From positions 2,604,001 to 2,668,000 of the forward strand of contig JBPQGU010000016.1 of NCBI GenBank assembly GCA_051362555.1: a DNA stretch of 64,000 bases, written 5' to 3'. The notes under the pieces were generated by a model. The model was not told where the DNA came from and ran no database searches. It saw only the letters and a program-made list of their open reading frames with translations. A program made the position numbers and the translations under genes. Source of the stretch: Lingula anatina (taxonomy: Eukaryota; Animalia; Brachiopoda). Shown piece after piece: positions 1-34,431 of the stretch. Each line of letters opens with the position of its first letter. Positions within the stretch are counted from its first letter, which is position 1.

Positions 1-2
1 TT

Positions 3-398
3 CAACTTTCAATTGAAACTAAATTTCAACATATTTTTGGTGAAGAATTATTCTATTTTTACAATTTTAAAAGACCGCTTCCATTACTTGAAAGAACAAA
101 TCTTTTAAAGCAATTAATTTCTAATAATGCTTTTGAAATTGTTAAAACACAAACTAATCAAAATTTTAAAATAGAATTAGAAAATTTAACATATGGAAAT
201 ATAAACATTCCATGACAAACAAAACGTTTAGGTGAAGATGATATTGTTGAAGCATTTGAAAATGCAATTTTTCCAATGTTTAATCGCATATTTTCAAAAG
301 CATTTACACGTTGATATGATTTAGGTCCTACTGATTATTCAGATGCACAATTAAATTTAAAATCAGAATTAGAAAAAATAAAAAAACCCACTAAATAA
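3..398 (+). CDS. Hypothetical protein, 3' partial
   Basis: Open frame in code 4 from the window edge (QLSIETKFQH...) to TAA 396-398; ends in a terminator. Confidence 0.75.
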
Positions 399-410
399 GT
401 GGGTTTTTTT
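381..410. terminator. Bidirectional intrinsic terminator
   Basis: AAAAAACCCAC-taaataa-GTGGGTTTTTTT between convergent genes. Confidence 0.85.
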
Positions 411-415
411 AACTA

Positions 416-437
416 TAATTTAATACTATACCAAAAA
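416..437. repeat. 22-bp direct repeat, copy 1 (TAATTTAATACTATACCAAAAA)
   Basis: Identical to 6299-6320. Confidence 0.85.
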
Positions 438-493
438 TTTTCAATAAAAATATAATATTAAAAATACTCTTAAATAAATTATATACTATAATT

Positions 494-970
494 TTATGAT
501 GGAAAGAAAAATTCTTCTAAGTTTAAATCTTTTTCAGATAAACCTATTTTTTCAATTTTTTCAATTTTTTCTAAATATTCATCAAATTTTTCAGGAATAC
601 CGTTTCTTGAAATAAAACTATTATATTTTTTTTCGTATTCTATTTCATCTGTTTGTTTAACATCATGAGCTTTTTTTATAAATGGTTTTATCAATGCTGC
701 TAAAACTATTTGAACAAATCCAGAAATTACAAACATGATTCAAGCACATTCTTCGCCATCAATTTTAATTTGTGATTTTCATTCATCTTTTGCAGATAAA
801 ATTATTCCAATTAAAAATAATGCTAATGAACAAAAAGTTAAAAATCAATATAATAATTGAAATATACGTCTTATTCATGTAATTTTTGATCAACAAGTTG
901 CAATATAATTAATTGTTGTATCATCTATTTTTAGATTTAATTTTTTATTGTTTATTTCGTTATTAAACAT
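494..970 (-). CDS. 2-TM membrane protein (158 aa) with scaffold-like C-terminal segment
   Basis: ATG at 970 after AGAAAGGC RBS; TGA read as Trp; two hydrophobic helices; C-terminus matches the 5313-5759 product. Confidence 0.8.
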
Positions 971-1047
971 TATTTGCCTTTCTTTTTTTTATTATAACTT
1001 TTTATATTTGATATCTATTTTCTCTACTATCACTTTTATGTTGTTTC

Positions 1048-4000
1048 TTAACGTTTTTTTCTTTCATTAACTAATTCTCTTATACCACTTGGACTACCCC
1101 TGCTACTATCTCTATCTGTGAAAGAACCAATTGCTCTAAACATTTTATCTTTTAAATCTTGGACTTTTTGATGTCAAGTAAGAGATTTATGTAAACTTTG
1201 TCCTCTTGAAGTTAAACCATCAATTCAGGCAGCAATTTTTTCATTTGTATTATAAGTTCTAACTAGATTTTGTATTGTAGCATCATTAAAACTAAAATCA
1301 TCTCTAACAACCATATCATCTATCATTTCATTAGCAGATAATATTGTTTCATCTGCTGATATTGGTTCTGGTCCAAAATGGTGAATTAATCTAAATGTTA
1401 TTCTTGTTCCATTAGCTGGTTTAATCACTTGTGTATAAGATTTATTTAAATCATAAGTATCAGCTAATGTAGATTTTACAAATACAACTTTTAAAAACTT
1501 AATTAATCTACCCATATGTTCCCAAGAACTTTCTTGATTTTCTCTTACATTAATATTTAATATTGAGTTTGAAGTAGTTATTCCATAATCACCTTTCATT
1601 TTAATACCTCTTGATGAATATATTTGTCCTGGATAAATTGCTGTTGTTTTTGTACTTAAATATGTTTTTGCTACTGAGCTATTTGTTTCTATTTCTGTTG
1701 TAAAACATCTTTTTCTATAAGTTCTATCTTGTTGTGTTTTAAAGAAATGTAATAAAGTAAAACAATTTTCAAGTCTTGGTGTAGCAGTAAATGTATATCT
1801 AGCGGTAGGACCTGGTTCAGCATTTAATAAATTAAATGAGTTTCAATTATAACAAGTAAAGGGAACAGTAAATCCTTCTTCCATTCTATTTCATAACATA
1901 TTATCAGTTGCATTTGTATCATTTGTAAATATTAAACCAGCAACAGCTAAAAATTTATCTTCTTGTATTAAATTGTTTTCTGCTTTTGATAATATGAAAT
2001 CAAAATCTACTTTTCAATTAGAGTTATTAATTTTTGAATTATCTTGGAATGTTAGTATTAAAAAATTGTCAGTAGTATGTCATACTGTAATTGCTTCTTT
2101 TGTATTATTTTCAACTAATTTAGGAATACCTTCACTTCATTCAACAACAAAAGTTGGTTCTTCTCCACCAGCATCACCTTTATCACCTTTATCACCTTTA
2201 GGTCCTGCTGGTCCTGCTGGTCCTATTTGTCTATCAGCTCATCTAACATCTTTAACTTTTATATTATCTTTAAACTTAACATCATTTAAACTAATACCAC
2301 CACCCGTTGGCCTTAAATTAGCAATTGTATTTTCAATATTATCAATTTTTTCTTTTAACGGGTCAAACTCATCTGTTTTTATTGTGGTAAGTGCATTTTG
2401 AACTGATGTTCTTGTTCTAGTTATAATATCATCTAATGTTCTTTTATTTATACCATCACTAGGTAATAATGGGTCTCCAACAGAAATTATTCTATTATTT
2501 CTTAATGATATAGGTTTATGAAAACCTGTATAAGTTCCTGCCAAGAACATATTTTCAGTTCCAGCTACTTTTAATGATGCTTCATTATCACTATTTACTT
2601 CAACATCAAAATTACCTCATTTACTATCACCTGCTGGTCCTTGTTCTCCTCTTTGTCCGTGTGCACCTTGTGGTCCTATTGGTCCTCTTGGTCCTGTATC
2701 TCCTTTATCACCTTTAGGTCCTTGTGGTCCTGCTGGTCCTCTTGGTCCTATTCCACTACCGCCACTACTTGGTAAATTAGCAATAGCATTATCTAATTGC
2801 CTTTTGTTTATAGCATCTTTTGGTGCTGTTCCATCAGCAACATCCACTATTTTATTATTTTCTAAATCTAATGTTTTTCCACTAAATAAAAAAAGCTTAT
2901 TATCTGTAAATTGTAAATATTTATTAATTAATGGTGATGGTTGTTTTCTTTCTAAAATACCTATATTAACAACTTTTTTACCACCTCTACTAATAAATTG
3001 TTTTATATATATATCACCAACTTTTGTTCCGCCAGCAAATGTAGCATCACCACCTGAACCTCCACCACTAGGTAAATTATCTAAACGATTTTTATTATCA
3101 ATAATTCCTGCTGTATTAGCATTAACTCTTTCTTTTAATGGATCAAGTTCCTCTGTTTTTATTCTTGTAAGTGTAGTTTGTGTTGCTTCTTGTGTACTAG
3201 TTATATTTCTAGTATTTTGTGATACTTGATTTCTTAATGCATTTGTTGCTTGTTCTATATTATCTACATTTTGATTTGTTGTATCTAAATTAGAACTTAA
3301 TTGATTTATTTGAGTTCTAGCTGTTGTAATATTTGACCTGTTATTTCTAATATTTGTTGCATTTTCAAAAGTTTTGTTTTCTGTAAGTGTAATGTGTCCT
3401 GTTAAACTATCTACATCATCTCTAAGGTCTTTATTAATCTCGTATTGATTAGGTCCACCCTCTTCTTGATTATTAGTAGCTAATAATTCATTTGTTTTAC
3501 TTGCACCACCAACACTACTACCTGTTCCTGGATCACCTTTGTCACCTTTAGGTCCTCTAGCGTTTTCTTTTATAAAATTTTTAAAATCATTAGAACTTAA
3601 AAGCTTTGAAACCAATACACCAGCTGTTGCTGGATATTGATCAATAAATAAATCAAGAAAAGTAGCTCTTACAGCTTTAAAAAATTTATCATCATATTCT
3701 AATTGAATTTCTCTTTTTTTAATAACTTGATTTAAAAAAAAAATTGAAACTTGTTCTAGTTCAGAAATTACTGGAACAGAGTATTCAAACTTTAAAAATT
3801 GATTAACATCATTAACAGATATTGGGATTACTGAATAATTTTTATTAGTTCCAAAAGAATCATTTCCTTTTTCAAAAATAAATTTAATTAGTAAACAAAT
3901 TGCATTTCTTAGATGTAATTTGTCATTATTAGATAATGAATTTCATTTAGATTCTTCAGATAATTGATAATCATTTAAATCCCTGTTGATTTTCATCACA

Positions 4001-4206
4001 GCAATTGTAAAATATTCTTGCAAGTATTCATTTGTAACATCTTTAATTGTTGGATCTAAAAATGTTAAATGAAGTTCTTTTGTAAAATATTGATAAACAT
4101 CATTATTATTCCTAATTTGTGGATTAGGAATTTTTTGTCCTGGATTTTTAGGATCATCAATTTCAAGTACTAAATTTTTATAATTTTTAAAAATATATTC
4201 AAACAT
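1048..4206 (-). CDS. Putative trimeric virion fibre/adhesin (1052 aa): collagen GXY tracts, coiled coil, two YadA-stalk-like motifs
   Basis: Four track ORFs share one frame and are joined through TGA (gaps checked for TAA/TAG); [17 protein letters not shown] tracts; [20 protein letters not shown] motif; directly downstream of the capsid-like gene. Confidence 0.8.
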
Positions 4207-4230
4207 AATTGATATTTAAAAAAATTAAAA

Positions 4231-5310
4231 TTATGTATATTGAAAAGGTCTTCTTGTTCCAATTTTAATTCTTTTAATAAATTTTAAAGCTACTTGACCA
4301 CTTGCTGAAACAAATTTGTCCCCTGATATCGGATCATGTGTATCAGGATCTGTATCTGTTCAAACTTCTTGAAAACCAACCACAGTTGTTGCAGAATTTA
4401 TATATTTTCCATCATTTTTAACTAAAATTACAGCATGAATATCTGAAAAATCAAATGATTCAGTATCATGTAAAATTCCAGCTGGATAATTGTTACCAAG
4501 TAAATTATCTTCATAAATTGTAATTCCATTAACTTTTACAGCGGCTCTATTTTCTAGAATTTGTTGTACACTATGACCAAATCTACCTAAAGCAAATGTT
4601 ATTTTTAAAAATGTAATTGGTGAAACAAATATTATGATTTTTTCTTTTTCAATTCCATCAGTAAATTGATCTATTAAATTTGTTATAGATAATGTTTGTT
4701 TTAATAAATCATTTAATATTTTTCCATTTTCATCTGAATGTGGATATGTGGTATCATTAGAACTATCAAAATTAAATGATGGATTATATTGATTAATATT
4801 TCCAGCAGCAGGTGTTGTTTTAGCTAATAATTTTCAAGATGTCTTTGAAGCCGTTGGAACTTCTCACTCTTTTGAATTTGCAGTATCAATTACTGTTTTA
4901 AAAAATCTTGCAGCAATTAATTTAGTTTTTTGAGCAGCTAAACTTGACATTACAACTCCTCTTAAATCCCCTGTTTTAGTGAACAATGCTGCATCTGCTG
5001 AATCTGTTGTGAATACAACTTTATCGTAATTTTCCATGAAAATATTTACATCTTCAGTTTTTAATTTTTGTCTTTCTGTAGTTGAACCAACAGTTTTATA
5101 TTGCAATTTATATGCAATCTTTTTTTGTACTGTTGCTCCTTTGTTAACTTCTTCAATTTGAATAAAACCTGCATGAAATAAACCTGATACTTTATTTAAA
5201 ATACGTGAAATGTCTTCATACATTAATGTACCAGCTATTTTATTACCTTGTCCATCTTCAATAGATAAAGTTCTAGCTAATTTTTGTGTAGTTGTTGAAA
5301 TACTTGCCAT
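4231..5310 (-). CDS. Putative major capsid protein (359 aa)
   Basis: Read through TGA to TAA 4231; size and position after the scaffold-like gene; GIEKEKIIIFVSP...VNGITIYEDNLL recalls HK97-fold capsid motifs. Confidence 0.6.
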
Positions 5311-5312
5311 TG

Positions 5313-5759
5313 TTAATTATTTTCTCCTTGATCAAAAACAACTCTTGGTTGTTTTTTTGGTGTTTTATCAATTTTAATTTGTTTTTCTTTAGAAAATGAT
5401 GGAATTGAACTTTCCATTGTTTCTTCTTTTTCTGTTTCAATTTTATTATTTTTTAATGGTTTTTCATTAAAAAATGAAGATAAATTTAAATCATTTATAT
5501 CTAAACCAGCTGATTTTGCTTTATCTATTTTTTGAATGTATTCATTAAATTTATCTTTTTTACCACCATCTAAAATAAATTTATTTTTTTTAAATTCTAA
5601 TTTTTCATTTTGAAATGTTTTTTTTTGAAATTCAAAATCTTTTTTTTCTTTTTTTAATTTTTCTATTGTTTCTTTTGTTTCTTCTTGAAGTTTTTTAAAT
5701 TCTTCTTTTTCTTTTAAAAAGTTTAAATATTCATTTGTTTTGTTAAAATCATTTTCCAT
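5313..5759 (-). CDS. Putative capsid scaffolding protein (148 aa)
   Basis: K/E-rich coiled coil immediately upstream of the capsid-like gene. Confidence 0.55.
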   Translation of the reverse strand: MENDFNKTNEYLNFLKEKEEFKKLQEETKETIEKLKKEKKDFEFQKKTFQNEKLEFKKNKFILDGGKKDKFNEYIQKIDKAKSAGLDINDLNLSSFFNEKPLKNNKIETEKEETMESSIPSFSKEKQIKIDKTPKKQPRVVFDQGENN

Positions 5760-6298
5760 AATATAATAATGTAATAATAAAAGAGAGGAAAAAGCATTCC
5801 ATGTTTAATGTAATATATTTAAGTATAATAAATCAAAAAAAATTATTTTTTAAAAACAACAAACAAAAAATGCTTTTTTTTATTAAAAACAGTAAACAAA
5901 AAACAAACACAAAACAAGTCCTACCTATCTTACGTAAGCTGTCCGCCTACTGCTTAATTTAATTATATATTAATTTAATTTATTTTTATTTTTTTTATAA
6001 TTTAAGTTAATAATTTTTTTTAAAGCTTTTTTAGAAGTGTTGGGAAGTTATTATTATTATAAAAAAAATATAGCTTTCCCACTACTATTACCAGAATAGT
6101 ATATATATACATATATATTAAGAAATATATAATATATAGAAAAATATGTCAAAAATCAATTTATTATAAAAAATTTATATTGTTAAATTTTTTTATATAT
6201 CGCTATTCTGTATAATGAGCAGCGGGTTTTGCCAACTTTTTTATAATAATTAAATTTATTATATTATTTAAATTAAATAATTACAAGAAAAAATATTC

Positions 6299-6320
6299 TA
6301 ATTTAATACTATACCAAAAA
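6299..6320 (-). promoter_or_regulatory. 22-bp repeat copy 2; contains an extended -10 (TG-G-TATAGT) facing the virion operon
   Basis: Minus strand reads TTTTTGGTATAGTATTAAATTA. Confidence 0.5.
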
Positions 6321-6353
6321 CAACCAATAGCAAGTCCTTGCAAATTTATATAC

Positions 6354-6380
6354 AAAAAAAAGCAGACATTTCTGCCTGCT
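6354..6380 (-). terminator. Intrinsic terminator with GAAA tetraloop
   Basis: Minus strand AGCAGGCA-GAAA-TGTCTGCT-TTTTTTT (one G-U pair, so strand-specific). Confidence 0.8.
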
Positions 6381-6559
6381 AATGTTGTGTAAGTAACAAA
6401 AATTTTTTAAAAAAAACAAATCCAATAGTTTTAAAAAAAAATTTATTTAATTCTAGTTTTAACAATACAACTAGCAAGTCCTTACTATCTTATTATCTAT
6501 CAAAAACAAAAAATAAAAATATTTATAAAAAATATTTTAAATAAATAATAAATATATAT

Positions 6560-6623
6560 TATAATAAAAATATTAAATAAATAATATTAAATATATAATA
6601 AAAATATTAAATAAATAATATTA
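6560..6623 (+). promoter_or_regulatory. Tandem 30-bp repeat (34-bp period) with TATAAT upstream of the first RHH gene; candidate promoter/operator
   Basis: TATAATAAAAATATTAAATAAATAATATTA at 6560 and 6594; degenerate copy near 6524. Confidence 0.5.
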
Positions 6624-6658
6624 TTTATTATAATAATAAAAATATAGAAAGGAAAAAT

Positions 6659-6811
6659 ATGAAAGTAACAATAACAGCCAGAGTTGAACATGACTTATGA
6701 AAAAAAATTCAAAAGTTATGTTTTAAAAAAGGAATTACATTTTCAAGTTTTGTAAATGATTCAATAAAAATGCATTTTGAAAATGAAAAATTAATTAGTA
6801 AAAAAAATTAA
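6659..6811 (+). CDS. Ribbon-helix-helix (CopG/Arc-like) DNA-binding protein (50 aa)
   Basis: MKVTITARVEHDLWKKIQKLCFKKGITFSSFVNDSIKMHF; RBS TAGAAAGGAA. Confidence 0.75.
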
Positions 6812-6836
6812 ATAAAAAAAGAAAGAAAACACAAAA

Positions 6837-7010
6837 ATGGAATATTATAAAAATCAAAAAATAGTTAAAAAATATTTGAATTGTTTTGAATTAGAAAATG
6901 GTGAAATTATTAAATGTAATAATGGAATATGTTTAATATGTAAAAACATTAACTATTTTATGGATGATAAAAAAATAGTTAGTTGTAATTGTTTTAAAAA
7001 TCAAAAATAG
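6837..7010 (+). CDS. Small Cys-rich protein (57 aa)
   Basis: ...KCNNGICLICK...SCNCF; ATG to TAG. Confidence 0.65.
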   Translation: MEYYKNQKIVKKYLNCFELENGEIIKCNNGICLICKNINYFMDDKKIVSCNCFKNQK

Positions 7011-7025
7011 AAAGGAAAAAAACAA

Positions 7026-7145
7026 ATGACATATTGTAAAAATTGTGAAAAAAATGTAGATGCTTACCACATTCAATGTGAGTGTATGTATCCATCTTGT
7101 AAATATAATATTTGCACTGAATGTAAAAAAATAATTGTTGATTAA
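7026..7145 (+). CDS. Small zinc-finger protein (39 aa)
   Basis: MTYCKNCEKNVDAYHIQCECMYPSCKYNICTECKKIIVD; RBS. Confidence 0.7.
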   Translation: MTYCKNCEKNVDAYHIQCECMYPSCKYNICTECKKIIVD

Positions 7146-7181
7146 GAAATAAAAACTGAAAGGAAAAAAAAATAAAAAATA

Positions 7182-7385
7182 ATGAATTTATTAGATCTAG
7201 AAAAAATAAGAGTTTGCAGAGTTTGTAAAATTAGAGAAAGTAATCAAAATTTAAAAAAAATAATTGTTTCTAATGTTTGAAGAATGAAAAACAGTTATTT
7301 ATATGATGAATGATTTGTATGTAGAAAATGTTTAAGAATAAAATTTAAAAAAGATAATTTACAAAGTTATTCATATTTAAAATAG
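7182..7385 (+). CDS. Small CxxC...CxxC zinc-finger protein (67 aa)
   Basis: VCRVC...FVCRKC in code 4. Confidence 0.7.
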
Positions 7386-7398
7386 AAAGGAATAAATA

Positions 7399-7725
7399 AT
7401 GGAATTGAAATATAGAGCTTGTTGTGAATGTTTTGAAGTTATAAGTTCAGGAAAGTATTATTTAACAGCTGAAAGTTTTGGAAGATATACAAGATGTTTT
7501 AAATGTCATTATAAAAAGAATAGGATAAAAAAAATGAAAATTGAAGAAAAAATGAAATGTTATAGTTGCTTAAAAATGTTTAATTCTAAAGAACTTAAAC
7601 ATATTTATGTTAATGAATGACCAAATCAATTAGATAATGCATATGTTTGTACTGCATGTTTTAAAAGCAATATTAAAAAAGATTTTATAGTATATGAAAA
7701 GATTAAATGAAAGGATATTAAATAA
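7399..7725 (+). CDS. Double zinc-finger protein (108 aa)
   Basis: CCEC/CFKC and CYSC/CTAC; extended through TGA. Confidence 0.75.
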
Positions 7726-7844
7726 TGGGAAAAGTAAACTTAGTAATAGAAATATTAAAAGAGTTAAAAAAAATAAATAAAAATTTACAAGAAATAAATG
7801 ATACTTTAATGACTGGGTTGGACGTTATAGATGTAACAGATTAA
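7725..7844 (+). CDS. Small helical hypothetical protein (39 aa)
   Basis: TAATG overlap, GAAAGGA RBS. Confidence 0.6.
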   Translation: MGKVNLVIEILKELKKINKNLQEINDTLMTGLDVIDVTD

Positions 7845-7866
7845 ATAGATTAAGGAGTGTATAAAT

Positions 7867-8220
7867 ATGAAAATAATAAAAACAAAAGAATTTAAACTAA
7901 CAAAAGAAGAAATTAAAGAATTTGAAAAAGATCAAAAAAAATATGATAGACATTATTATTTTAAATGTTTAGGATGTAACAAAAGATACAACAATTTAAG
8001 AAACGATACAATTCAAAGCCAATATTGTTCTTTGGTTTGTAAAATAGAATATTTTGACAAAAATGAAAAGTTGTCAAAAGAAAACCCTAAAGCATGAAAA
8101 AAGAAATTAGGTCTTAAAGATCTAGATGAAAGATTTTGAAATTTAAAACAAAAACACCAACAAAAACTAGATAAAACAATAGAAAAATTAAAAAAAGATA
8201 CAGAAGGGAATAAAAATTAA
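7867..8220 (+). CDS. Zinc-finger protein (117 aa)
   Basis: CLGC...YCSLVC; AAGGAG RBS; extended through TGA. Confidence 0.75.
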
Positions 8221-8476
8221 AGCTATAAATGAAATAACAAAACTTAATTTAGATTGTAATTGTTATCCATGTTTTAGAGTAAAAAAAGGTGATATATCTT
8301 GTCAAGAAACTGCAAAATTTTTAATAATAGATAAAGAAAATAAATTTAATCAAAAGTTTTTATGTACAACATGTTTAAAAGAAAGAATTGATGATTTAGA
8401 ATTTAAAAAAAATAAATTAGATGATGAAATTACACTTTTTAAAAATATGTTAAAGGAATTCAAAGAAAAAAAATAA
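8216..8476 (+). CDS. Cys-rich protein (~86 aa), apparent non-ATG (ATT) start
   Basis: Open frame ...DCNCYPC...SC...LCTTC to TAA overlapping the next ATG; AGAAGGGA RBS upstream of ATT. Confidence 0.55.
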   Translation: MKAINEITKLNLDCNCYPCFRVKKGDISCQETAKFLIIDKENKFNQKFLCTTCLKERIDDLEFKKNKLDDEITLFKNMLKEFKEKK

Positions 8477-8895
8477 TGGAAAATATAAAAATAATTAAAA
8501 ATTTAATATGTAAAAATTGTAAAAAAAAAGATTATCAATTTAATGGACAAAAAGTTTATATGAATAAAAGAACTAATGAAATTTTATGTTCATCATGTTT
8601 TGCAAAAAGACATATTGGTAAAGATCAAGTTGATATTGTTCAACTTAAATTTCCAGATGCAATTCAAAGAATTATAGACTTAGAAAAAAAACTTGAATTT
8701 TTAAAAGGTAAAAATTTTTTAATTAATAAAATGTTGAAATTTATTGCATTAAAACCAAGTTATACTTCAGAAGAAATAACTAAAGAATTATTAAAAACTT
8801 CATTTGGAATTAATGAAGAAATTATACAAACAGAAAAAGAAATAGAAACAAAAGTAAATGAAGATATCAAAAATAGGGAGATATTAAATGATTAA
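8476..8895 (+). CDS. Zinc-finger plus helical protein (139 aa)
   Basis: CKNC...LCSSC. Confidence 0.75.
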   Translation: MENIKIIKNLICKNCKKKDYQFNGQKVYMNKRTNEILCSSCFAKRHIGKDQVDIVQLKFPDAIQRIIDLEKKLEFLKGKNFLINKMLKFIALKPSYTSEEITKELLKTSFGINEEIIQTEKEIETKVNEDIKNREILND

Positions 8896-9061
8896 AACAA
8901 ATACTATTAAATATTGTATGAATTGTAACCGTTTAACTATTTGATCTATTCTTAAAGATATAAATATAAAAAAAATTGGAAAAAAAGATTTGTTCTATTG
9001 TGATTTTTGTTTTGGTGATAAAAAAGGAGTAGATATAAGAAATTATTCTTGAATGAAATAA
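8888..9061 (+). CDS. Small zinc-ribbon protein (57 aa)
   Basis: YCMNC...YCDFC; AGGGAG RBS. Confidence 0.7.
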
Positions 9062-9234
9062 TGAATTATAAATCAATACTATATGCTTTAGAAAAATGTA
9101 ATGAATGTGAAGATCCACGTTCAAATTTAAAATGTGAATATGGATGTGGTTGATGTTTCCTCCATTGCATTGGACATTATACAAAAGATGGAAAAATTGT
9201 TTTTTCTAAAAAATATCAAAAAAATATAAAATAA
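9061..9234 (+). CDS. Small Cys/His-rich protein (57 aa)
   Basis: CNEC...CEYGCGWCFLHC..H; TAATG overlap. Confidence 0.7.
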
Positions 9235-9241
9235 AAATATC

Positions 9242-9431
9242 GGGGTTGGTTGATTGTTTTTATTGTATTATTATTTCATTTCTCATAATTACATTTTCCA
9301 ACCCCAAAATAAAAATATAAAATAAAAAATAAATATGGTAAGTTTTTATTTCTTACCACTAAATACCATTCATACCGCAACCATTGTTAAAATAATGTAT
9401 TATCTTATTCTTTTTATTTCTTGGTTGCGGT
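9242..9431. other. Three consecutive GC-rich inverted repeats in an intergenic region
   Basis: GGGGTTGG/CCAACCCC (9242-9305), TGGTAAG/CTTACCA (9336-9358), ACCGCAACCA/TGGTTGCGGT (9374-9431). Confidence 0.8.
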
Positions 9432-9508
9432 TGTTTTTTAAATAAAAAAAATAATATTAAAATATAAAAAAAATATTATAATAAAAATTATAGAAAGGAA
9501 AAGAAAAA

Positions 9509-10045
9509 ATGAAAATTGAATTTAAAAAAGAAGAAGAAAAATCAGATAATGAAATATTAAATAATATGAAAAAATATTCAAAAAAAGAATTGATTGATTA
9601 TTTTGAAAAATTAATTTTTATGAAATCTTTATTAGAAGATGAAAAAGATAAAGTAAATGAATATAGAGAAAATGCTTTAGAATGTTTAGAAAGAATTATA
9701 AATAAAGCATCAAGATTAGCTAAATTTTTTGAAAAAGAAATTTCAGAAAGAAAAGATGAATTAGAAATTAAATATGGTAAAAAATTAGCAGATTTTTTAA
9801 ATAAATATCATTTTTATCAAAATGGAGATGATCACTTTCATGTTTGTAATGATAATGATGATGGTGGTATTTTTAATATATATATTACTGATAAAAAAGA
9901 ATATAACAAATATAATTTTTACAATAAAGTTATAGAACCAAGTTGAGGTCAATTTTGTTATTATAGTTTTGGTTCAAACAATTTAGATGAATTTATTGAA
10001 AAATTTAATAATATGTTAAAAGAAATTAAAGATAGAAAGGAATAA
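9509..10045 (+). CDS. Hypothetical phage protein (178 aa)
   Basis: RBS TAGAAAGGAA; extended through TGA to TAA. Confidence 0.75.
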
Positions 10046-10047
10046 AT

Positions 10048-10227
10048 ATGAATAAAGAATATGAAGCTTTAAAGTATAGAAAAAAAACAGTAACTACAAT
10101 TATAGATTATGCTGTTTTTTTAGAAGCTAAAAGATTATCTTTTGAACAAGAAATAACTTTTTCAGAATTTGTAAATAGAGCATTAAAGGAGTATTTAAAA
10201 ATTCAAAATGAAAAATGAAAAAGATAA
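10048..10227 (+). CDS. Ribbon-helix-helix protein (59 aa)
   Basis: KKTVTTIIDYAVFLEAKRLSFEQEITFSEFVNRALKEYL; resembles the 6659 product. Confidence 0.75.
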
Positions 10228-10411
10228 AGAAGCAAAATTTAATTTAGTAGAAGAAACATGACAAGAACTAACTAAAAAAATGTTTCCAAAACATAAAATG
10301 AAAAAAATGCTTTCAGAAGAATTTAAAGAACTTTTAAAAGAGTTTTTAAAAAAAGAAGGTTATATAAAAAAAACCGATTTGTTAGATTTTATAAAGAAAG
10401 GAAAAGAATAA
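10208..10411 (+). CDS. Small protein, possibly RHH-like (67 aa)
   Basis: KFNLVEETWQEL...LSEEFKELLKEFL; AAGGAG upstream. Confidence 0.55.
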
Positions 10412-10414
10412 AAA

Positions 10415-12136
10415 ATGATTGATACAAATAAAAATAAATTAAATTTAAAAGAAATAGGAATAGTAACAATAGCTACAACTTCTTTAGTTGTTGGTGCTGT
10501 AGCTTTAGGAATGATTGCAAATCAACCTAAAACAGTTGTTGAAAGTAAAATTTCAAAAGAAAAAGAAGATAAACTTTTAAAACTTTTAGAAAAAAAAGAT
10601 TTAACTATTGATGAAATTAAAAAAATAGTTAATAAAGCTGTTTTAGATGCTTTAAAAAATGTTAAAACAGGTAAAGATGGTTTACCAGGACCACAAGGAC
10701 CTAAAGGTGATAAAGGTGAACCCGGAATTAAAGGTAAATCTTTTGATAATTCAGAATTAGAAGCAATTAAAAGTACTTTAGATAATTTAGAACAAAAAAT
10801 AAAAGAATATGGTGATTCTATTTATGATTTAAAAAATAATCCAAAATTTAAAGGTTTACCAGGACCGCAAGGTCCTAAAGGTGAAAAAGGTGACAAAGGC
10901 GAAAAAGGTGATACTGGACCAGAAGGACCACATGGACCACCCGGACCAAGAGGTGAAAGAGGTGAACCAGGACAAAGAGGAGAAAGAGGTTTACCAGGAC
11001 CACAAGGACCAGCAGGTAAAGATGCGCCAGTTCCTACAGTTGAAACATTAAGACCATTAGTAAATGAAGTTATATCAAGATTATGAAGTGAACAAAATAA
11101 AAGATTACAAGAAGTAAATAATGATTTAGCATCTGCTAGTCGTAGCTTACAATTAAGATACAATGAATTAAATACAAAATATCAAGAATTATATAGTGAT
11201 TATTTAAGTAAAGTTGGTGAAGATGGTGAATTAACTTCAAAAATAGAAGAATTTAAAAATAAAGTAGATGAAACTAAAAGATTAATAGATTCTTCAATTG
11301 AAAGAATTGGTACAGAAAAACAAGCTATTGATGATCAAATAAATGCTTTAAAAGAAAAAGTTAAAAAAGTAATTGAAAATCCAAAAGATTTTGTTTGAGA
11401 ACATTTAGAAGATAATATTCAAGAATTGATAAATAATCTTGAAGCACCACAAGGTGAACCAGGACCAGGTCCAACTAAAGAACAAATTGCAGAAGCTGTT
11501 GATGCTTGATTTTTAAAACATCCAGCACTTTCAGGACCTAAAGGTGAACCAGGTGATAGAGGACCACAAGGACCAAGAGGTTTTGCAGGAGAAAGCGGAA
11601 AAGATGTAACACCTAAACAAATAATAGATGCATTTACAGCCTTTATAAATTCTAATGCCTTTAGAAATTCTATAAGAGAAAAAGTTAGAAATTATGGTAA
11701 TGAAGAATTAGAAACTTTAAGAACAGAATTACAAGGTATTAAAAATTCAATAATACCATTAATTGGAAGACAAACTACACCTGATGAATTAAACAGAGAT
11801 ATAGCATTTGAAAATGAATTACTTAAAAAATCATTATCTGGTAATTTAGGAATAACTGATGAAACAAAAGATGAATTATTAGAATTTGCAAAAATATTTA
11901 AAAATGAAATTTATAAAGTAACACCTCGTTCACTTTTAAATAATGGAGTAACAACAAAAACATGAATATTTGGTAATTTTAGAATAACTATTTTTTCTAA
12001 TAAAAAAACACTTGTTCAACTTGAAAATATGAATTATTCAGATACAACAAAATGAATTAGAATGCATGTTAATATGGTAGGTAATGGTTGAGATTTAACA
12101 CCACTTGAAAATAATGATAATGTAGATGAAAAATAA
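10415..12136 (+). CDS. Membrane-anchored collagen-like/coiled-coil protein (573 aa)
   Basis: N-terminal hydrophobic helix, several GXY tracts alternating with coiled coil; read through TGA to TAA 12134-12136. Confidence 0.85.
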
Positions 12137-12170
12137 AGCGATTGAGAAGTAAATAGAAAGGAATAAATAA

Positions 12171-12203
12171 AAAAAACGGATGATAAAATATCATCCGTTT
12201 TTT
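12171..12203. terminator. Bidirectional intrinsic terminator
   Basis: AAAAAACGGATGAT-aaaat-ATCATCCGTTTTTT. Confidence 0.9.
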
Positions 12204-12204
12204 G

Positions 12205-12288
12205 TTATAATGTTATATGATCTTGATCTATTAAATTTATTAATAGACTTTTTCTTTTTTTTATTTTTTTGTTTAAAGATGTTTTCAT
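12205..12288 (-). CDS. 27-aa basic micro-ORF (MKTSLNKKIKKRKSLLINLIDQDHITL)
   Basis: Phage-type RBS AGAAAGGAA before the ATG; stop abuts the terminator. Confidence 0.45.
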   Translation of the reverse strand: MKTSLNKKIKKRKSLLINLIDQDHITL

Positions 12289-12317
12289 GATATTCCTTTC
12301 TTTTGCAAAAAAATAAT

Positions 12318-12348
12318 TACCTCTATTTTTATTTAAAAAATAGAGGTA
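12318..12348. terminator. 13-bp perfect stem-loop
   Basis: TACCTCTATTTTT-attta-AAAAATAGAGGTA followed by T-rich sequence. Confidence 0.6.
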
Positions 12349-12386
12349 TTTTCTTCAAAAACAAACCAAAACGCGCATTTCACACA

Positions 12387-12440
12387 TTACTATAGACTAT
12401 ATAATATTATATATATATAATATTATATAGTCTATAGTAA
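12387..12440. repeat. Perfect 54-bp palindrome
   Basis: TTACTATAGACTATATAATATTATATA|TATATAATATTATATAGTCTATAGTAA; all 27 pairs checked. Confidence 0.95.
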
Positions 12441-12734
12441 AATATATAAATGAAATGTATATATTTTATGAAAAAATCCAAAAATTCAAAAAATTAATGG
12501 AATAATTTATTTAAATATTTACATAATAAAAATAAAAATTATTAAATTGTTTTATTGATTTAATTGAAAATTAAAAATAAATAATAATAGAAATTTTAAT
12601 ATTAAATCAATAAAATCAAGAATAAAATGATATTAAAAACATAATATATTAAATATAAAAAATAATTGATATATAAATTAAAAATTTATTGTTTTATTAA
12701 TTGTTTTTTTTATTTTTTTTTTTAAAAAAAGTAC

Positions 12735-12762
12735 TTGAAAAAAAAAAAAAAAAAGATAACAT
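12735..12762 (+). promoter_or_regulatory. Promoter with poly(A)17 spacer (candidate phase-variable)
   Basis: TTGAAA (12735) running into A17 (12738-12754), then TAACAT (12757, 16-bp spacing), just upstream of ATG 12779. Confidence 0.6.
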
Positions 12763-12778
12763 TATAAATTATTGAGAA

Positions 12779-15700
12779 ATGAAAAAATATAAAAAAAATA
12801 TTACAAAAAAACAAAAAATGATTATATTTTTTGTAATTTCAAGTATTATTTTTATAATTATAATTTTAATAACTATCAATTTACCAAAATTAAATAACAA
12901 TAATAAAAAAACAGAAATAAAAAAATATATTAAAAAAAATAAAAAATTTATTGATTTAATTCAAAAAAAAGTACAAAAACAAGCACATTCTCCAACACAA
13001 GAACAAACTGATATTTCAAGTTCAACAACTCAACCTACTGAACAACATGATAGTTCAACAAATACAAATCCAACACATGAATTAAATGTAGATTCAGTAG
13101 AAACTGAAAGAGCAGATAACACTAAAACTGATGGTTCAAGAAAAACACAAGAACAACAAGGTGATGATAGTTCAAGTTCAACAACTCAACCTGTAGATCA
13201 AACTGATAGTTCAAGAAATAAAAATCCAACACCTGAATTAAATGTAGATTCAGTAGAAAATGAAAGAGCAGATAACATGCAAACTGATAGTTCAAGAGAA
13301 ACACAAGAACAACAAGGAGATGATAGTTCAAGAGAAACACAAGAACAACAAGGAGATGATAGTTCAAGAGAAACACAAGAACAACAAGGAGATGATAGTT
13401 CAAGACAAACACAAGAACAACAAGGAGATGATAGTTCAAGTTCAACAACTCAACCTGTAGATCAAACTGATAGTTCAAGAAATAAAAATCCAACACCTGA
13501 ATCAAATGTAGATTTAGAAGAAACTGAAAGTATAGATAATACGCAACCTGATAGTTCAACAAATACAAATCCAACACCTGAATCAAATGTAGATTTAGAA
13601 GAAACTGAAGAAGTAGATAACATACAACCTGATGGTTCAAGAAAAACACAAGAACAACAAGGTGATGATAGTTCAAGTTCAACAACTCAACCTGTAGATC
13701 AAACTGATAGTTCAAGAAATAAAAATCCAACACCTGAATTAAATGTAGATTCAGTAGAAAATGAAAGAGCAGATAACATGCAAACTGATAGTTCAAGAGA
13801 AACACAAGAACAACAAGGAGATGATAGTTCAAGTTCAACAACTCAACCTGTAGATCAACCTGATAGTTCAACAAATACAAATCCAACACCTGAATCAAAT
13901 GTAGATTTAGAAGAAACTGAAAGTATAGATAATACGCAACCTGATAGTTCAACAAATACAAATCCAACACCTGAATTAAATGTAGATTCAGTAGAAAATG
14001 AAAGAGCAGATAACATACAAACTGATAGTTCAAGAGAAACACAAGAACAACAAGGAGATGATAGTTCAAGTTCAACAACTCAACCTGTAGATCAAACTGA
14101 TAGTTCAAGAAATAAAAATCCAACACCTGAATCAAATGTAGATTTAGAAGAAACTGAAAGTGTAGATAATATGCAACCTGATAGTTCAACAAATACAAAT
14201 CCAACACCTGAATCAAATGTAGATTTAGAAGAAACTGAAAGTGTAGATAATATGCAACCTGATAGTTCAACAAATACAAATCCAACACCTGAATCAAATG
14301 TAGATTTAGAAGAAACTGAAGAAGTAGATAACATACAACCTGATGGTTCAAGACAAACACAAGAACAACAAGGTGATGATAGTTCAAGTTCAACAACTCA
14401 ACCTGTAGATCAAACTGATAGTTCAAGAAATAAAAATCCAACACCTGAATTAAATGTAGATTCAGTAGAAAATGAAAGAGCAGATAACATGCAAACTGAT
14501 AGTTCAAGAGAAACACAAGAACAACAAGGAGATGATAGTTCAAGACAAACACAAGAACAACAAGGAGATGATAGTTCAAGTTCAACAACTCAACCAGTAG
14601 ATCAACCTGATAGTTCAACAAATACAAATCCAACACCTGAATTAAATGTAGATTCAGTAGAAAATGAAAGAGCAGATAACATACAACCTGATGTTTCAAG
14701 ACAAACACAAGAACAACAAGGTGATGATATTTCAAGTTCAACAACTCAACCTACAAAAAAACATGATAGTCCAACAAATACAAACCCAATACCTGAAAAT
14801 TCAGAAAAAACTGAAGAAGTAGATAACATAGAACCTGATGGTTCAAGACAAAGACAAGAACAACAAGTTGATGATAGTTCAAGTTCAACAACTCAACCTA
14901 CAGAACAACCTGATAGTTCAAGAAATACAAATCCAACAACTGAATCAAATGTAGATTCAGTAGAAAATGAAAGAGTAGATAACACAGAACCTGATAGTTC
15001 AACAACTACTACAACACAACAATCAGAACAAACACAAGTACAACAAACAGGACAAAATCCAAGAACTACAGTAACAGATGTAGATGAAACAAAAGTTGAA
15101 GATTTAGAAGAAAATGAATGTAATTATAATCAAGAAACATTAGAAATTAATATACCAGATTGATTTGATAGTAGACCAAAATCTTTGGGCGATACAAATT
15201 TTTTGTCAACATCTGAAATAGGCGCAAGATTTCAAGCATGAATAAATGAAAATATTAAACATAGAGAATTTTTCAAATCAAAAATATATGAAGAAACAGA
15301 TGAATATATTGATTATATTTATAAAAATGTATGAGTAAGAAAATGAAAAAGAATAAATCAAGCTAGACTTTGAACTGATAATTCATTCAATAATCCATGA
15401 TCTACAAAATATATGATTACACCTAAATTGAGATTTAAACATGGGTATGAACAACCAGATTTTTATGTTCCTATATTTTTTTATAGCGAAAATTCTCAAG
15501 ATGATACACATTTAAAATTTCAATTAAATAATTGATTAAATTTACATGGTAATAGAGCTAAGGAATTTATTAAATCTAAAAAATTAAAAGAAACAGATGA
15601 ATATATTGATTATGTTTATAAAAGAATAAAAATAAGACATTATAAATTAGGAAAAGAAATTGGCAATTGAATTTGATATAGAGATAGTTGAAGTGATGAA

Positions 15701-17704
15701 ATAGATAGTAATTTATGATCTAAACATGGTTATGATGTAAATGGTAGAGTAATTGAAAATAATAGAAATGAAAATATAGATAATTTAAAAACATTACCAT
15801 TATGAGATTGTATTAATATTGAAATAAATCCAATAGAAATTGAAATACCAAATTGATTTGATGATGATACATTAAATAAAAATGATGTAAAACAAAGATT
15901 TTTTGCATGAATAGATGAAAATGAAAAAAATAAAGAATTTATAAAATCAAAAGTATTTAAAGAAACAAATGATTATATAGATTATATTTATAAAAGAATA
16001 TGAATAAGACATTATAAATTAGGTAAAAAACCTAACAATGAATTATTTTGATATGATGACTGATCTAGTTATTTAAAAACAAATAAACAAAGACAATTAG
16101 CAGGATATATTGAAAATGATGAAATACACACACATGAACAACAAGATGGTGATAGTTCAAGTTCAACAAATACAAATCCAATACCTGAAAATTCAGAAGA
16201 AACTGAAGAAGCAGATAACACAAAATCTGTTAGTTCAACAACTACAACTACAAGAACTTTTTTTGAAAGTTCATCACATGTAAAAGATGTAACAATACCT
16301 GAAGTAAATGAAGATTCAAAAGAAACTGAAGAAGTAGCTAACACACAATCTGTTAGTTCAACACAAGCACAAGAACAAAACGGTGATGATATTTCAAGTT
16401 CAACAACTCAACCTGTAGAACAACATGATAGTTCAACAAATACAAATCCAACACCTGAAAATTCAGAAGAAATTGAAGATGCAGATAAAACAAAATCTGA
16501 TAGTTCAAGACAAACGCAAGAACAACAAGATGGTGATAGTTCAAGTTCAACAAATACAAATCCAATACCTGAAGTAAATGAAGATTTAGCAGAAATTGAA
16601 GAAGTAGATAAAACACAATCTGATAGTTCAATACAAACACATGAACAAGAACCAGGACAAACAGAACAATCTGAAGAAGAATTTATATTACCAAGTTGAT
16701 TCTATGATGATACATTTGTAGATCATACTATTAATGATGATGGTTTATTAACTAATGAAAAAAAACAAATTGTATTTGATTGACTTTATAATCATGAGAA
16801 TAATGAAAAAAATAGAGAATTTATGTGAAGTAAACAATATAAATATACACCTATAAGACCAGATTATGGACATTATGATTATATTTATAAAAAAATATGA
16901 ATAAAATGAACAAATCCAGAAACAATATCTGTTTGATATGGTGATTGAACTTCATACATTAATACAAAACCAGAAACTGAAAAAGAACATTTTGGTTATC
17001 CATTAATTAATGAAAAAAATCAAATACCAAATCAAGAATTATCAATTCATAAAGAAAAAACAGAAGAAACAGTTGTAAATAATAATGAAGAACAAGATGA
17101 AATATTAAATAAAAATTCTCATGAAAATACTATTACTGAAACAATAAATGGAAAAACAATAAATATTCCAAGTTGATTCTATGATGATACATTTTTAAAT
17201 CATACAATTGATGATGATGGTTTGTTAAATGAAGAAAAAACATCAATAGTATCAAATTGAGTTTTCAATAATGAAAATGACTATCAAAATAAAGAATTTA
17301 TTTGAACTAAATTACATAGATATAAAATTGGAACTTATGATTCTATTTATAAAAAAATATGAATAAGATGAATTAATGAAAATGAAATAAAAGTTTGATA
17401 TGGTGATTGATCAGAATATTTAAATACAGAATTAGTTTTAAAAGAAAGAAAAAAAGTATATTTACCAAACTCTAACTATTTAGAAAAACCTGTTTGATTT
17501 GATAATCCTAATGTAAATCCAAATATAATTAAAAATTGAATTGAAACAAATCCAAATAAATTTTTGCAATTTATAATGAATTCTGACAATTTTGTAAAGA
17601 GAACAGAAAATTATGTTTCTTATGAATATGAACTTTTATACTTTAGTTTTGATTACAATACAAAAAAAATAAGTATTTGATGAAATGATATTAAAATTGT
17701 TTAA
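12779..17704 (+). CDS. Large membrane-anchored repetitive surface protein (1641 aa)
   Basis: N-terminal TM; S/T/Q/D/E repeat stalks; ~6 Trp-rich domains; frame followed through TGA to TAA 17702-17704. Confidence 0.9.
12994..15003 (+). repeat. Intragenic mosaic tandem repeat of 81-, 36- and 39-bp modules
   Basis: SSTNTNPTPESNVDLEETESIDNTQPD / SSRETQEQQGDD / SSSSTTQPVDQTD; further copies at ~16135-16640 and ~17935-18330. Confidence 0.9.
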
Positions 17705-17728: not shown

Positions 17729-19192
17729 ATGAAAGAAAAAAATATAGAAATAATTAATAAATTTAAAAATATCTTAAAAAACAAAAAAAATATTGTTTTA
17801 ATTATTTCAATTATTTCAGTTATTTCTATATCTATAGTTTTAATGATTATATTTTTATCAACTGAATCAAAAAAAACAACATCAAATAAATCAACAAAAA
17901 AAACATCTAAAACAACCAAAAAAATAAAAGGAAAAGAACAACAAGGTGATGATAGTTCAATTTCAAAAACTAAACCTAAAGAACAAACTTATAGTCCAAC
18001 AAATACAAATCCAATATCTGAATCAAATGTAGATCCAGAAGAAACTGAAGAAGCAGATAACACAAAAACTGATGGTTCAACACGAACACAAGAACAACAA
18101 GGCGATGATATTTCAAGTTCAACAACTCAACCTGTAGAACAAACTGATAGTCCAACAAATACAAATCCAATATCTGAATCAAATGTAGATTCAGAAGAAA
18201 CTGAAGAAGTAGATAACACAAAACCTGATGGTCCAACACAAACACAAGAACAACAAGGCGATGATATTTCAAGTTCAACAACTCAACCTGTAGAACAAAC
18301 TGATACTCCAACAAATACAAATCCAATATCTACTTTAGATAGTTCAGGTCAAACACAAGAACAATCAGGAAAAACTCCAACACAAGATCAAACACCAGGA
18401 CAAGAACAACCTGATAGTTCAGTTCAACAACATGGACAAACACAACAAGATTTATCTACACAACATGAAACAACATATATATATCAAGGCGAAGAAAAAA
18501 CAATTAATTTACCTTCTTGATTTAGTGATAATACTTTTGATGATAAAACAGATGAAGAAATAAAAACAACTGTATTAGATTGAATTTATGATACAAATTC
18601 ACCACAAAATAATGAATTTATTTATTATTCAGGTAAATTGTATAAAACAATATGACAAAGAATAGGAAATAAAACATATTATGTATATATTTATAAAAAA
18701 ATAAAAATAAAATGACTTTCAAGGAATGATATAGAGATTTCATATGATAAACAAAATGAATGAGCAGAAAAATATATAAATAATAGATGAGAATTTGAAT
18801 CAAATGGACCAAATCCAGAAAAATATGGTTATCCTGCATTAACATTACCATTTGATTTTGAAAATGAAGAAGCAAAATATATACATAATAATGAAGAAAA
18901 AACAATTAATTTACCTTCTTGATTTAGTGATGATACTTTTGATGATAAAACATATGAAGAAATAAAAACAATTGTATTAAATTGAATTTATGATACAAAT
19001 TCACCAAAAAATGCAGAATTTATTTGAAGTAAAAGATTAGGTACTAATAATATATATATTTTTAGAAAAATAAAAGTAATATGAAATTCAAGTGATAATA
19101 GTATAGATGTTTTATATGGTAATTGAATTGATACTGATGATAATGTTGTTAGAAGTTGAATTATTTCTAATCATTCAAAATATGGTTATTAA
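17729..19192 (+). CDS. Paralogous membrane-anchored repetitive surface protein (487 aa)
   Basis: TM anchor, same stalk modules, two Trp-rich domains; TAA 19190-19192. Confidence 0.9.
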
Positions 19193-33700: not shown

Positions 33701-34431
33701 TCATTTAAAACTAAATTTTTTCATTCAATTTTAGATAATATATTTTCTCTTTCAACATTTTCAGTATAAACTTCATTATGTTTTAAAAATAAATTTATTT
33801 GTTTTTTAATACTTTCTTCTAAATATTTTTTAATTCCAATATTACTGTTTTTTAAAAAATAAACTTCTAATAAATTTGCTAAATTTTGATATTTTTGATC
33901 AATTGTTTCTTTATATTTTTTTATTAATTTTTGATGTATAGAGTTTTTATAAAAAATACTTTTTTGATTTATTTTAAAATGTTTTGAATCAATATAAACA
34001 TTTTCAACTTTTAAAATTTTGGTTTTATTTAAATTAAATTGATATCTTATTTTTACATTTTTTTTATCTATTGGTAGAAAACATCCATTTTTTGAAAATG
34101 AATAACTTGGAAATCTTTTTATTTTATTATCTTTTGTTTTGATTTCAGTATAGTCATTACAAAAAATGTTTCTATGTTTGTTATTTATTAAAAAATCTCT
34201 TTCTAATGAATAAATTTTATTTGGATTAAAATTATTTAATTCACTTTTTTGAAATTCTTTATTTATTTGTGTATTTATTTCATAAAAACTTGAAATAGTT
34301 ATAGAAAAAACAATTGTTATTAATAAAAATATGATAAGTGGTATTTTAAATTTAGAAATATTACCCAAACCATTTTTTATAATTAATAATCAATTGTTTA
34401 TTTTTTTTCTAAAATATTTATTGTTTTTCAT
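27781..34431 (-). CDS. Giant FtsX/MacB-type ABC permease (~2216 aa)
   Basis: All minus-strand track fragments share one frame; NEIVISPTFAKENNLKIGD, ELGFLKAQG and LKIIGYSNKE motifs; ends checked, interior spot-checked. Confidence 0.8.

What the first reader, a model, noticed from the sequence alone, without database searches (positions are those of the whole stretch)
494..970. Membrane protein carrying a copy of the scaffold protein's core: membrane-tethered capsid assembly factor or decoy
Seen: FISRNGIPEKFDEYLEKIEKIEKIGLSEKDLNLEEFF (506-616) aligns without gaps to FILDGGKKDKFNEYIQKIDKAKSAGLDINDLNLSSFF of the scaffold-like protein (5469-5579), 18/37 identical, but here it follows two TM helices. 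Inference: it could anchor procapsids to the membrane for non-lytic or budding release from a wall-less cell, sense or trap the capsids of superinfecting relatives, or be a holin-like protein timed by capsid assembly. I know of no described case.
Basis: partly seen in the sequence, partly recalled or inferred. Interest (0 to 1): 0.8.

Follow-up and report, generated by a model that had tools for sequence, protein, structure and literature searches.

The report
Membrane protein with phage scaffold copy
A phage-like region in a wall-less bacterium encodes a predicted two-helix membrane protein whose tail matches the middle of the region's likely capsid-scaffold protein; it likely uses that copy to hold the scaffold at the membrane and so would link capsid assembly to virus release.

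Summary
Under code 4 (TGA=W), 494-970(-) is a 158-aa protein with two predicted membrane helices. Residues 106-155 match residues 50-97 of the protein at 5313-5759: 22/50 identical, E 1e-8, 0 of 120,000 shuffles reached the score. The copy is old and under selection: the hydrophobic pattern is kept at 34/37 positions, which no neutral-drift run reached. The gene behind 5313-5759 is an HK97 major capsid protein, so 'scaffold' is well supported by position but not shown. The copy is the scaffold's middle part and lacks its C-terminal tail, the capsid-binding part in the best-studied case. It more likely binds scaffold, or itself, than capsid. The gene follows the last structural gene, where 4 of 4 Mollicute phages I compared carry a small membrane protein. 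Best reading: a holin-slot release protein that grips the scaffold (0.35). Rivals: a reused self-oligomerisation module (0.25) or a superinfection decoy (0.22). No homologue of either protein was found, and no terminase, portal or integrase was recognised in the window.

The parts
494..970 (-). P1: 158-aa two-TM membrane protein (code 4), last gene of the structural operon
797..853 (-). P1 predicted TM helix 1 (residues 40-58)
   Evidence: KD 2.36
689..745 (-). P1 predicted TM helix 2 (residues 76-94); basic flanks suggest N-in/C-in, so the tail is predicted cytoplasmic
   Evidence: KD 2.39 and charge counts; positive-inside rule is recalled knowledge
506..655 (-). Scaffold-like segment of P1 (residues 106-155)
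971..1047 (-). 77-nt gap before P1 with one TATAAT (0.10 expected, weak) and a GAAAGG ribosome-binding site; 5 of the small right-hand genes also have it, the three upstream structural genes do not
1048..4206 (-). P4: 1052-aa fibre protein with collagen and YadA-stalk repeats; N-terminus has only a weak head-tail adaptor hit (E 0.32)
4231..5310 (-). P3: 359-aa HK97-fold major capsid protein
5313..5759 (-). P2: 148-aa charged, non-membrane protein in the scaffold slot, 2 nt upstream of the capsid gene
   Evidence: slot compared
5469..5612 (-). Donor segment in P2 (residues 50-97); holds a motif shared with MAV1-type HtpH slot proteins (post hoc test)
5316..5468 (-). P2 C-terminal tail, absent from P1; R-V-V-F at residues 139-142 loosely recalls the RIIK capsid hook of 80alpha scaffold
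   Evidence: RIIK; resemblance only
416..437 (+). Left copy of a 22-bp exact direct repeat
   Evidence: 2 matches, 0.05 expected
6299..6320 (+). Right copy of the 22-bp direct repeat; the pair brackets P1-P4-P3-P2 (5.9 kb)
379..411 (.). Bidirectional terminator-like hairpin ending the operon
6659..12136 (+). Divergent phage-like block: two Arc-like repressor paralogues, small Cys-rich ORFs, and a TM-anchored collagen protein

Best explanation
P1 is a predicted two-helix membrane protein whose C-terminal ~50 residues match the middle of the likely scaffold protein P2, and it likely pairs with the scaffold through that copied segment, which would hold assembling procapsids at the membrane and tie release from the wall-less cell to capsid assembly. 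Shown: the paralogy, its protein-level conservation, the operon order scaffold-capsid-fibre-P1, and the HK97 fold of P3. Inferred: P2 is a scaffold; the copy went from scaffold to P1; the segment is a self-association domain; the P1 tail is cytoplasmic; P1 acts in release. Untested: any binding or membrane activity.
For: Paralogy. Selection on the protein: identity 12/16 at hydrophobic or Gly positions vs 6/21 elsewhere (Fisher p=0.008). In neutral drift to the same 41 DNA differences, 5,576/6,000 and 5,659/6,000 runs gained a stop; of the 424 and 341 open runs none reached the observed BLOSUM sum (92) or class agreement (34/37). Capsid: six relatives at 27-31%; one of them scores 0.98 to capsid clusters in the Atlas; the model's best Foldseek hits are podophage capsids, E 1.4e-4 and 1.8e-4. 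Direction: a 13-residue block from three MAV1-type scaffold-slot proteins scores P2 above 1,497 of 1,500 shuffles but not P1 (774 of 1,500 reach it, motif chosen after seeing P2). Slot: in 4 of 4 Mollicute phages or prophages compared (MAV1, phiMFV1, L097, L098) a small TM protein follows the last structural gene. Budding-like release is reported for short-tailed Mollicute phages L3, SpV3 and ai (PMC13375369, passages).
Against: No homologue of P1 or of the shared segment was found, so nothing shows the fusion recurs. P2 matches no scaffold profile, and the whole-protein HtpH profile does not match it (E 0.2). The copy is only 44-49% identical to its own scaffold. No terminase, portal, integrase or replicase was recognised in the window, so this copy may not make virions. 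In run X7, capsid-gene contigs lie at depth 73-141 while bins 700-853 and 854-1007 have 0 and 1.5. That hints that close relatives do without P1, although the tool warns that a hole proves nothing. The segment was picked as the best local alignment, which favours the selection tests.
Confidence: 0.35

Rival explanations
1. The segment is a reused self-oligomerisation module. P1 is a holin-like or Mem-like membrane protein that clusters with itself through a domain borrowed from the scaffold, and no longer touches scaffold or capsid.
For: It explains selection on the hydrophobic pattern despite ~50% divergence. The slot proteins of MAV1, phiMFV1 and L097 are a TM helix plus a charged, coiled-coil-like tail with no scaffold similarity, so any oligomerising tail may do. 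P1 has lost the motif that P2 shares with HtpH-type proteins.
Against: Surface charges are also partly kept (6/21 polar identities), and both genes sit in one operon, so the products would meet.
Confidence: 0.25
2. P1 is a superinfection defence. Expressed in the lysogen, it acts as a membrane-tethered scaffold decoy that traps the scaffold of incoming relatives, or uses it as the trigger to open the membrane.
For: It has its own ribosome-binding site, a possible -10 box and a terminator. The same region holds MAV1 Vir, which confers superinfection resistance (PMC7466169, passages). Precedents: CpmB scaffold mimicry, Tab (PMC10884400, abstract), Rip1 (as reviewed in PMC13434031, passages). P1 may be missing from the high-depth relative in X7 (weak).
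Against: PADLOC hits (best E 0.0044) are at noise level: 4 of 15 control proteins had hits at E<=0.005. P1 lies in the same direction as the structural genes, so the element would need to escape its own decoy; no counter-defence gene is evident. TATAAT is expected 0.10 times by chance in that gap.
Confidence: 0.22
3. The similarity is chance convergence of two Lys/Glu-rich amphipathic helices in an AT-rich genome, or a functionless relic of an old duplication.
For: Low-complexity composition. A two-row profile of the segment gives spurious hits up to E 1.1e-4 per genome in 27 of 399 genomes.
Against: 0 of 120,000 composition-preserving shuffles; rank 4 of 1,431 gene pairs; neutral drift rejected.
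Confidence: 0.05
4. P2 is not a scaffold but another small phage protein, so the shared segment says nothing about capsid assembly.
For: No profile or Atlas support for P2. HtpH of MAV1 has no function given in its record.
Against: Size, charge, lack of TM and position directly upstream of an HK97 capsid gene match the slot in MAV1, phiMFV1, L097 and L098.
Confidence: 0.1

Closest known systems
SaPI1 CpmB, mimic of phage 80alpha scaffolding protein (10.7554/eLife.30822; passages read)
   Same: A second small protein shares sequence with a scaffold and bears on capsid assembly.
   Different: CpmB is soluble, satellite-encoded and shares the C-terminal RIIK capsid hook. P1 is membrane-anchored, lies in the scaffold's own operon, shares the middle segment and lacks the tail.
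MAV1 Imm/Vir and phiMFV1 Mem (PMC7466169 passages)
   Same: Membrane proteins right after the structural genes of Mollicute phages whose HtpE is distantly related to P3 (E 1.4e-4 in a 14-protein set).
   Different: Single N-terminal anchor or lipoprotein; no significant similarity to P1 (best E 0.066); no scaffold-derived part seen.
Class II (two-TM) holins (recalled knowledge)
   Same: Two TM helices, predicted N-in/C-in, charged C-terminal tail, end of the late operon.
   Different: No holin profile hit; longer tail derived from the scaffold; no endolysin gene, which a wall-less host would not need.
Rip1 and Tab, prophage defences aimed at virion assembly (PMC13434031 passages; PMC10884400 abstract)
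   Same: Small prophage genes acting on late morphogenesis; Rip1 joins sensor and membrane effector in one protein.
   Different: Rip1 senses portal or small-terminase rings and Tab blocks tails; in the passages seen neither is described as a copy of a scaffold domain. No defence is shown for P1.
Spiroplasma poulsonii NSRO-P1/P2 phage-like elements (10.1101/2021.12.09.471767, passages) and the similar prophage in L098
   Same: HK97 capsid related to P3 (E 1.6e-9 in a small set), adaptor-fibre protein then a small TM protein in L098; the paper finds no recognisable lysis genes.
   Different: They carry terminase and portal; none was recognised in this window.

Membership tests
HK97 major capsid protein (P3) | HK97 fold or homology to capsid families | tested here: met
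   model is low confidence (pLDDT 48, pTM 0.56)
Phage scaffolding protein (P2) | Gene directly upstream of the capsid gene | tested here: met
   2-nt gap
Phage scaffolding protein (P2) | Small, charged, no TM segment | tested here: met
   coiled coil judged by eye only
Phage scaffolding protein (P2) | Match to a scaffold profile | tested here: inconclusive
   no Pfam, PHROG or NCBIfam scaffold hit; short motif shared with HtpH-slot proteins, post hoc
Phage scaffolding protein (P2) | Needed for, and found inside, procapsids | not testable with these tools
   needs assembly experiments
Class II holin (P1) | Two TM helices with cytoplasmic ends | tested here: met
   hydropathy and charge only
Class II holin (P1) | Match to a holin family | tested here: inconclusive
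   none listed at E<=10, but HMMER filters drop weak matches
Class II holin (P1) | Timed membrane permeabilisation | not testable with these tools
   needs expression assay
CpmB-type scaffold mimic (P1) | Shares the scaffold's C-terminal capsid-binding motif | tested here: not met
   P1 ends three residues after the copied segment; P2 98-148 has no counterpart
CpmB-type scaffold mimic (P1) | Soluble protein | tested here: not met
   two TM windows
Two-TM anti-phage effector (PADLOC) | Significant profile match | tested here: inconclusive
   best E 0.0044; 4 of 15 controls do as well
Two-TM anti-phage effector (PADLOC) | Protects against phage when expressed | not testable with these tools
   needs host and phage
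MAV1 Vir / phiMFV1 Mem | Sequence homology | tested here: not met
   phmmer E 0.066 and 0.079 in a 14-protein set
MAV1 Vir / phiMFV1 Mem | Position after the structural genes | tested here: met

The most novel reading that the evidence does not exclude
A tailed-phage lineage of wall-less bacteria has fused a copy of its own scaffold's self-association domain to a membrane anchor. Procapsids then nucleate on the membrane, and scaffold load sets off release or kills cells infected by relatives: a membrane-tethered scaffold decoy, and a molecular handle on budding-like exit of HK97 phages from Mollicutes.
Probability: 0.3. Interest if true: 0.8.

Novelty: new variant of a known kind. Interest (0 to 1): 0.45.

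Why it matters
How HK97-type phages leave wall-less Mollicutes is poorly known: budding-like exit is reported (PMC13375369) and lysis genes were not recognised in Spiroplasma phage-like elements (10.1101/2021.12.09.471767). A membrane protein carrying a scaffold-derived domain gives a concrete, testable link between capsid assembly and the membrane. If it is defensive, it is a scaffold decoy fused to a membrane effector. My paper searches listed no such case by title or abstract, but the library lacks most subscription journals. Its weight is limited: it is a single case, in a bacterium with no genome held here, in an element that may be incomplete.

Tried and rejected
Homologue searches for P1: 0 of 55 candidates at E<=0.1, lengths 86-277 aa only; no match in 50,697 phage records; 1 of 398 Mycoplasmatales-level genomes, at the same place as a chance hit. 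P2: no phage record; Atlas best 0.79, unnamed. Profile of the shared segment: 0 of 3 genomes; 27 of 399 at E<=0.01 per genome, of which 20 of 28 places were examined: most lie in long frames unlike either protein, one was cut off by its locus end, none resembles a P1 or P2 relative. Loci around capsid relatives could not be fetched: viral contigs, metagenomes (74, 78) and genomes (24) gave none; one search gave 0 of 2,938 and only an input protein among 7,996. Capsid profile: 9 of 400 genomes, all weak; of three regions opened, L097 and L098 are prophages and L096 is not. Single-sequence fold of P3 was uninformative (pLDDT 35); no PDB sequence match. Complex prediction of P2 30-105 with the P1 tail, without alignments: score 0.00, no answer, no evidence either way. 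No RNA holder listed; one RNA run gave 3 reads on collagen repeats only. A by-eye likeness of P1 to SLATT/DUF4231 and of P2 to Phage_GP20/DUF4355 (recalled) was not supported by Pfam. No Rfam match in 1-13000. The partial ORF 3-398 matched nothing. An EF-Tu scan did not name a close host relative. Two ORFs of about 50 aa or less near 7017 and 7725 were not scanned.

Full report
Setting. The window is a very AT-rich bacterial chromosome stretch read with code 4: housekeeping genes such as era, tuf, topA, rpsB, tsf, dnaG, lon and obg lie from 19 kb on. No whole genome is held. Unchecked AI notes on other pieces of this assembly describe a brachiopod genome, so the bacterium is probably a co-assembled Mollicute symbiont; I did not test this. 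The first 12 kb are phage-like. On the minus strand lie P2 (5313-5759), P3 (4231-5310), P4 (1048-4206) and P1 (494-970), ending at a bidirectional hairpin (379-411). Divergent from them is a block of small genes with two Arc-like repressor paralogues and a collagen protein.

Observation. The two peptides are as quoted, 18/37 identical, with 70/111 DNA identity. BLASTP extends the match to 22/50, E 1e-8 after composition adjustment. None of 120,000 shuffles in six sets reached the score of 109 (highest 85), and the next best of 441 window frames scores 61 and 75. Among 1,431 pairs of 54 window genes the pair ranks fourth, above two true GTPase paralogue pairs. P1 has two hydrophobic windows (40-58, 76-94) with basic flanks, so the copied tail is predicted to be cytoplasmic.

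The copy is under selection. Identities cluster at hydrophobic and Gly positions, 12/16 against 6/21 (p=0.008), and hydrophobic/polar class agrees at 34/37. In a simple AT-biased drift model run to the same 41 base differences, 93-94% of 6,000 runs from either copy gained a stop. Of the 424 and 341 open runs, 1 and 0 reached 18 identities and none reached the observed BLOSUM sum or class agreement. The model is crude and the segment was chosen as the best alignment, so the figures overstate certainty, but a recent or decaying duplication fits poorly.

Is P2 a scaffold? P3 had no direct family hit. It has six relatives at 27-31% identity among 1.84 billion representatives. One has a weak major-head PHROG hit (E 0.0026) and scores 0.96-0.98 to capsid clusters in the Atlas. 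A model from 14 sequences (pLDDT 48) finds podophage capsids first in PDB (E 1.4e-4) and in BFVD (E 1.8e-4). P3 is also distantly related to the capsid of Spiroplasma-type prophages and to MAV1 HtpE. P2 sits 2 nt upstream, is small, charged and has no TM window, like the slot proteins of MAV1, phiMFV1, L097 and L098. It matches no scaffold profile and the whole HtpH profile misses it (E 0.2). A 13-residue block from three HtpH-type proteins does pick out the end of the shared segment in P2 (3 of 1,500 shuffles reach it) but not in P1 (774 of 1,500). I chose that motif after seeing P2, so it is a lead: it suggests the segment is native to the scaffold and was copied into P1.

What was copied. 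P1 has P2's residues 50-97 and ends three residues later. P2's tail (98-148), with R-V-V-F near its end, is absent. In phage 80alpha and SaPI1 CpmB the capsid contact is the C-terminal ~16 residues with an RIIK motif, while the N-terminal domain of CpmB dimerises (10.7554/eLife.30822, passages). By analogy only, P1 carries the self-association part rather than the capsid hook.

Slot. In 4 of 4 Mollicute phages or prophages compared, a small TM protein follows the last structural gene: MAV1 imm, phiMFV1 p15 and mem, L097 13798-14151, L098 7017-7223. None resembles P1 in sequence. The region is variable and holds Mem and the superinfection-resistance lipoprotein Vir (PMC7466169, passages). Budding-like release is reported for short-tailed Mollicute phages (PMC13375369, passages), and Spiroplasma phage-like elements lack recognisable lysis genes (10.1101/2021.12.09.471767, passages). 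P1 is the only two-TM protein of the operon. It has its own GAAAGG site and one TATAAT, expected 0.10 times by chance.

Distribution. No homologue of P1 or P2 was found, and contigs of the capsid relatives could not be fetched. Seven runs from three studies hold part of 1-6000, one of them a possible source. On 700-5300, runs X2 and X3 cover the 5' part of P1 on single contigs with no listed difference inside the gene. X7 has capsid-gene contigs at depth 73-141 with a few percent differences, but depth 0 and 1.5 in the two bins over P1 and 0 over 1162-1777. The tool warns that holes prove nothing and no chromosomal control was laid, so this only hints that P1 and the fibre tip are a variable module. 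The copied segment and P2 were outside the stretch laid.

Completeness. No terminase, portal, integrase or replicase was recognised in the window; they may lie left of base 1, where a gene of unknown kind ends at 398. A 22-bp exact repeat at 416-437 and 6299-6320 (2 matches, 0.05 expected) brackets exactly the four-gene module and could be attachment sites or a recombination scar. The element may therefore be partial, defective or satellite-like.

Verdict. The paralogy is real and maintained. I commit to a holin-slot membrane protein that grips the scaffold through the copied domain and so links assembly to release (0.35). A reused self-oligomerisation module (0.25) and a superinfection decoy (0.22) are close rivals; a wrong scaffold label (0.10) and chance (0.05) are less likely. 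It works like CpmB in borrowing scaffold sequence and like Rip1 in possibly joining an assembly sensor to a membrane part (PMC13434031, passages), but it fails the CpmB membership tests and has no significant defence-profile match. Paper searches (listings only) showed no described case; supplements were not read. New variant of a known kind; interest 0.45.

Noticed in passing
window 12387-12440: Perfect 54-bp palindrome at the right edge of the phage-like region (hairpin -19.1 kcal/mol, z -8.7). It recalls a telomere-resolution or recombination site (recalled; no resolvase gene seen).
   Followed up: partly
window 416-437 and 6299-6320: 22-bp exact direct repeat brackets a 5.9-kb module with scaffold, capsid, fibre and P1 but no packaging or integration genes; the left copy abuts a terminator hairpin. 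On the minus strand it also looks like an extended -10 box (by eye).
   Followed up: partly
window 1048-4206 (-): Fibre gene whose N-terminus may be a head-tail adaptor (E 0.32), like the adaptor-fibre fusion in L098 (E 3e-6). Run X3 has a variant segment with 33 differences in 328 bases at 2300-2627.
   Followed up: partly
window 10415-12136 (+): 573-aa protein with an N-terminal TM window, three collagen stretches and coiled coils at the end of the early-type block; possible phage-borne surface protein.
   Followed up: no
window 6659-10411 (+): Run of small ORFs, many Cys-rich, with two Arc-like repressor paralogues (E 7e-8) and strong GAAAGG sites; no replicase recognised.
   Followed up: partly
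window 12779-17704 and 17729-19192 (+): Two paralogous N-anchored proteins (1641 and 487 aa; E 3e-52) with long Ser/Thr/Gln/Asp repeats and repeated Trp-rich domains; no Pfam match of note.
   Followed up: no
window 27781-34431 (-): 2216-aa FtsX-like permease with a very large insert.
   Followed up: no
L119 (MAV1) 12480-12755: MAV1 'putative repressor Imm' has an N-terminal TM window (KD 2.47) and a charged tail, more like a membrane protein than a repressor; 'marRP' and 'htpN' hold the slots that look like terminase and portal in L097 (by eye).
   Followed up: no
window 38945-40027 (+): 360-aa ORF that looks by eye like a strongly diverged GAPDH; no Pfam match at E<=1e-8.
   Followed up: no
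P0005-P0010: Six capsid clusters from unnamed ENA/Logan contigs up to 27 kb form, with P3, a small capsid family not found in the phage records or IMG/VR scans tried.
   Followed up: partly
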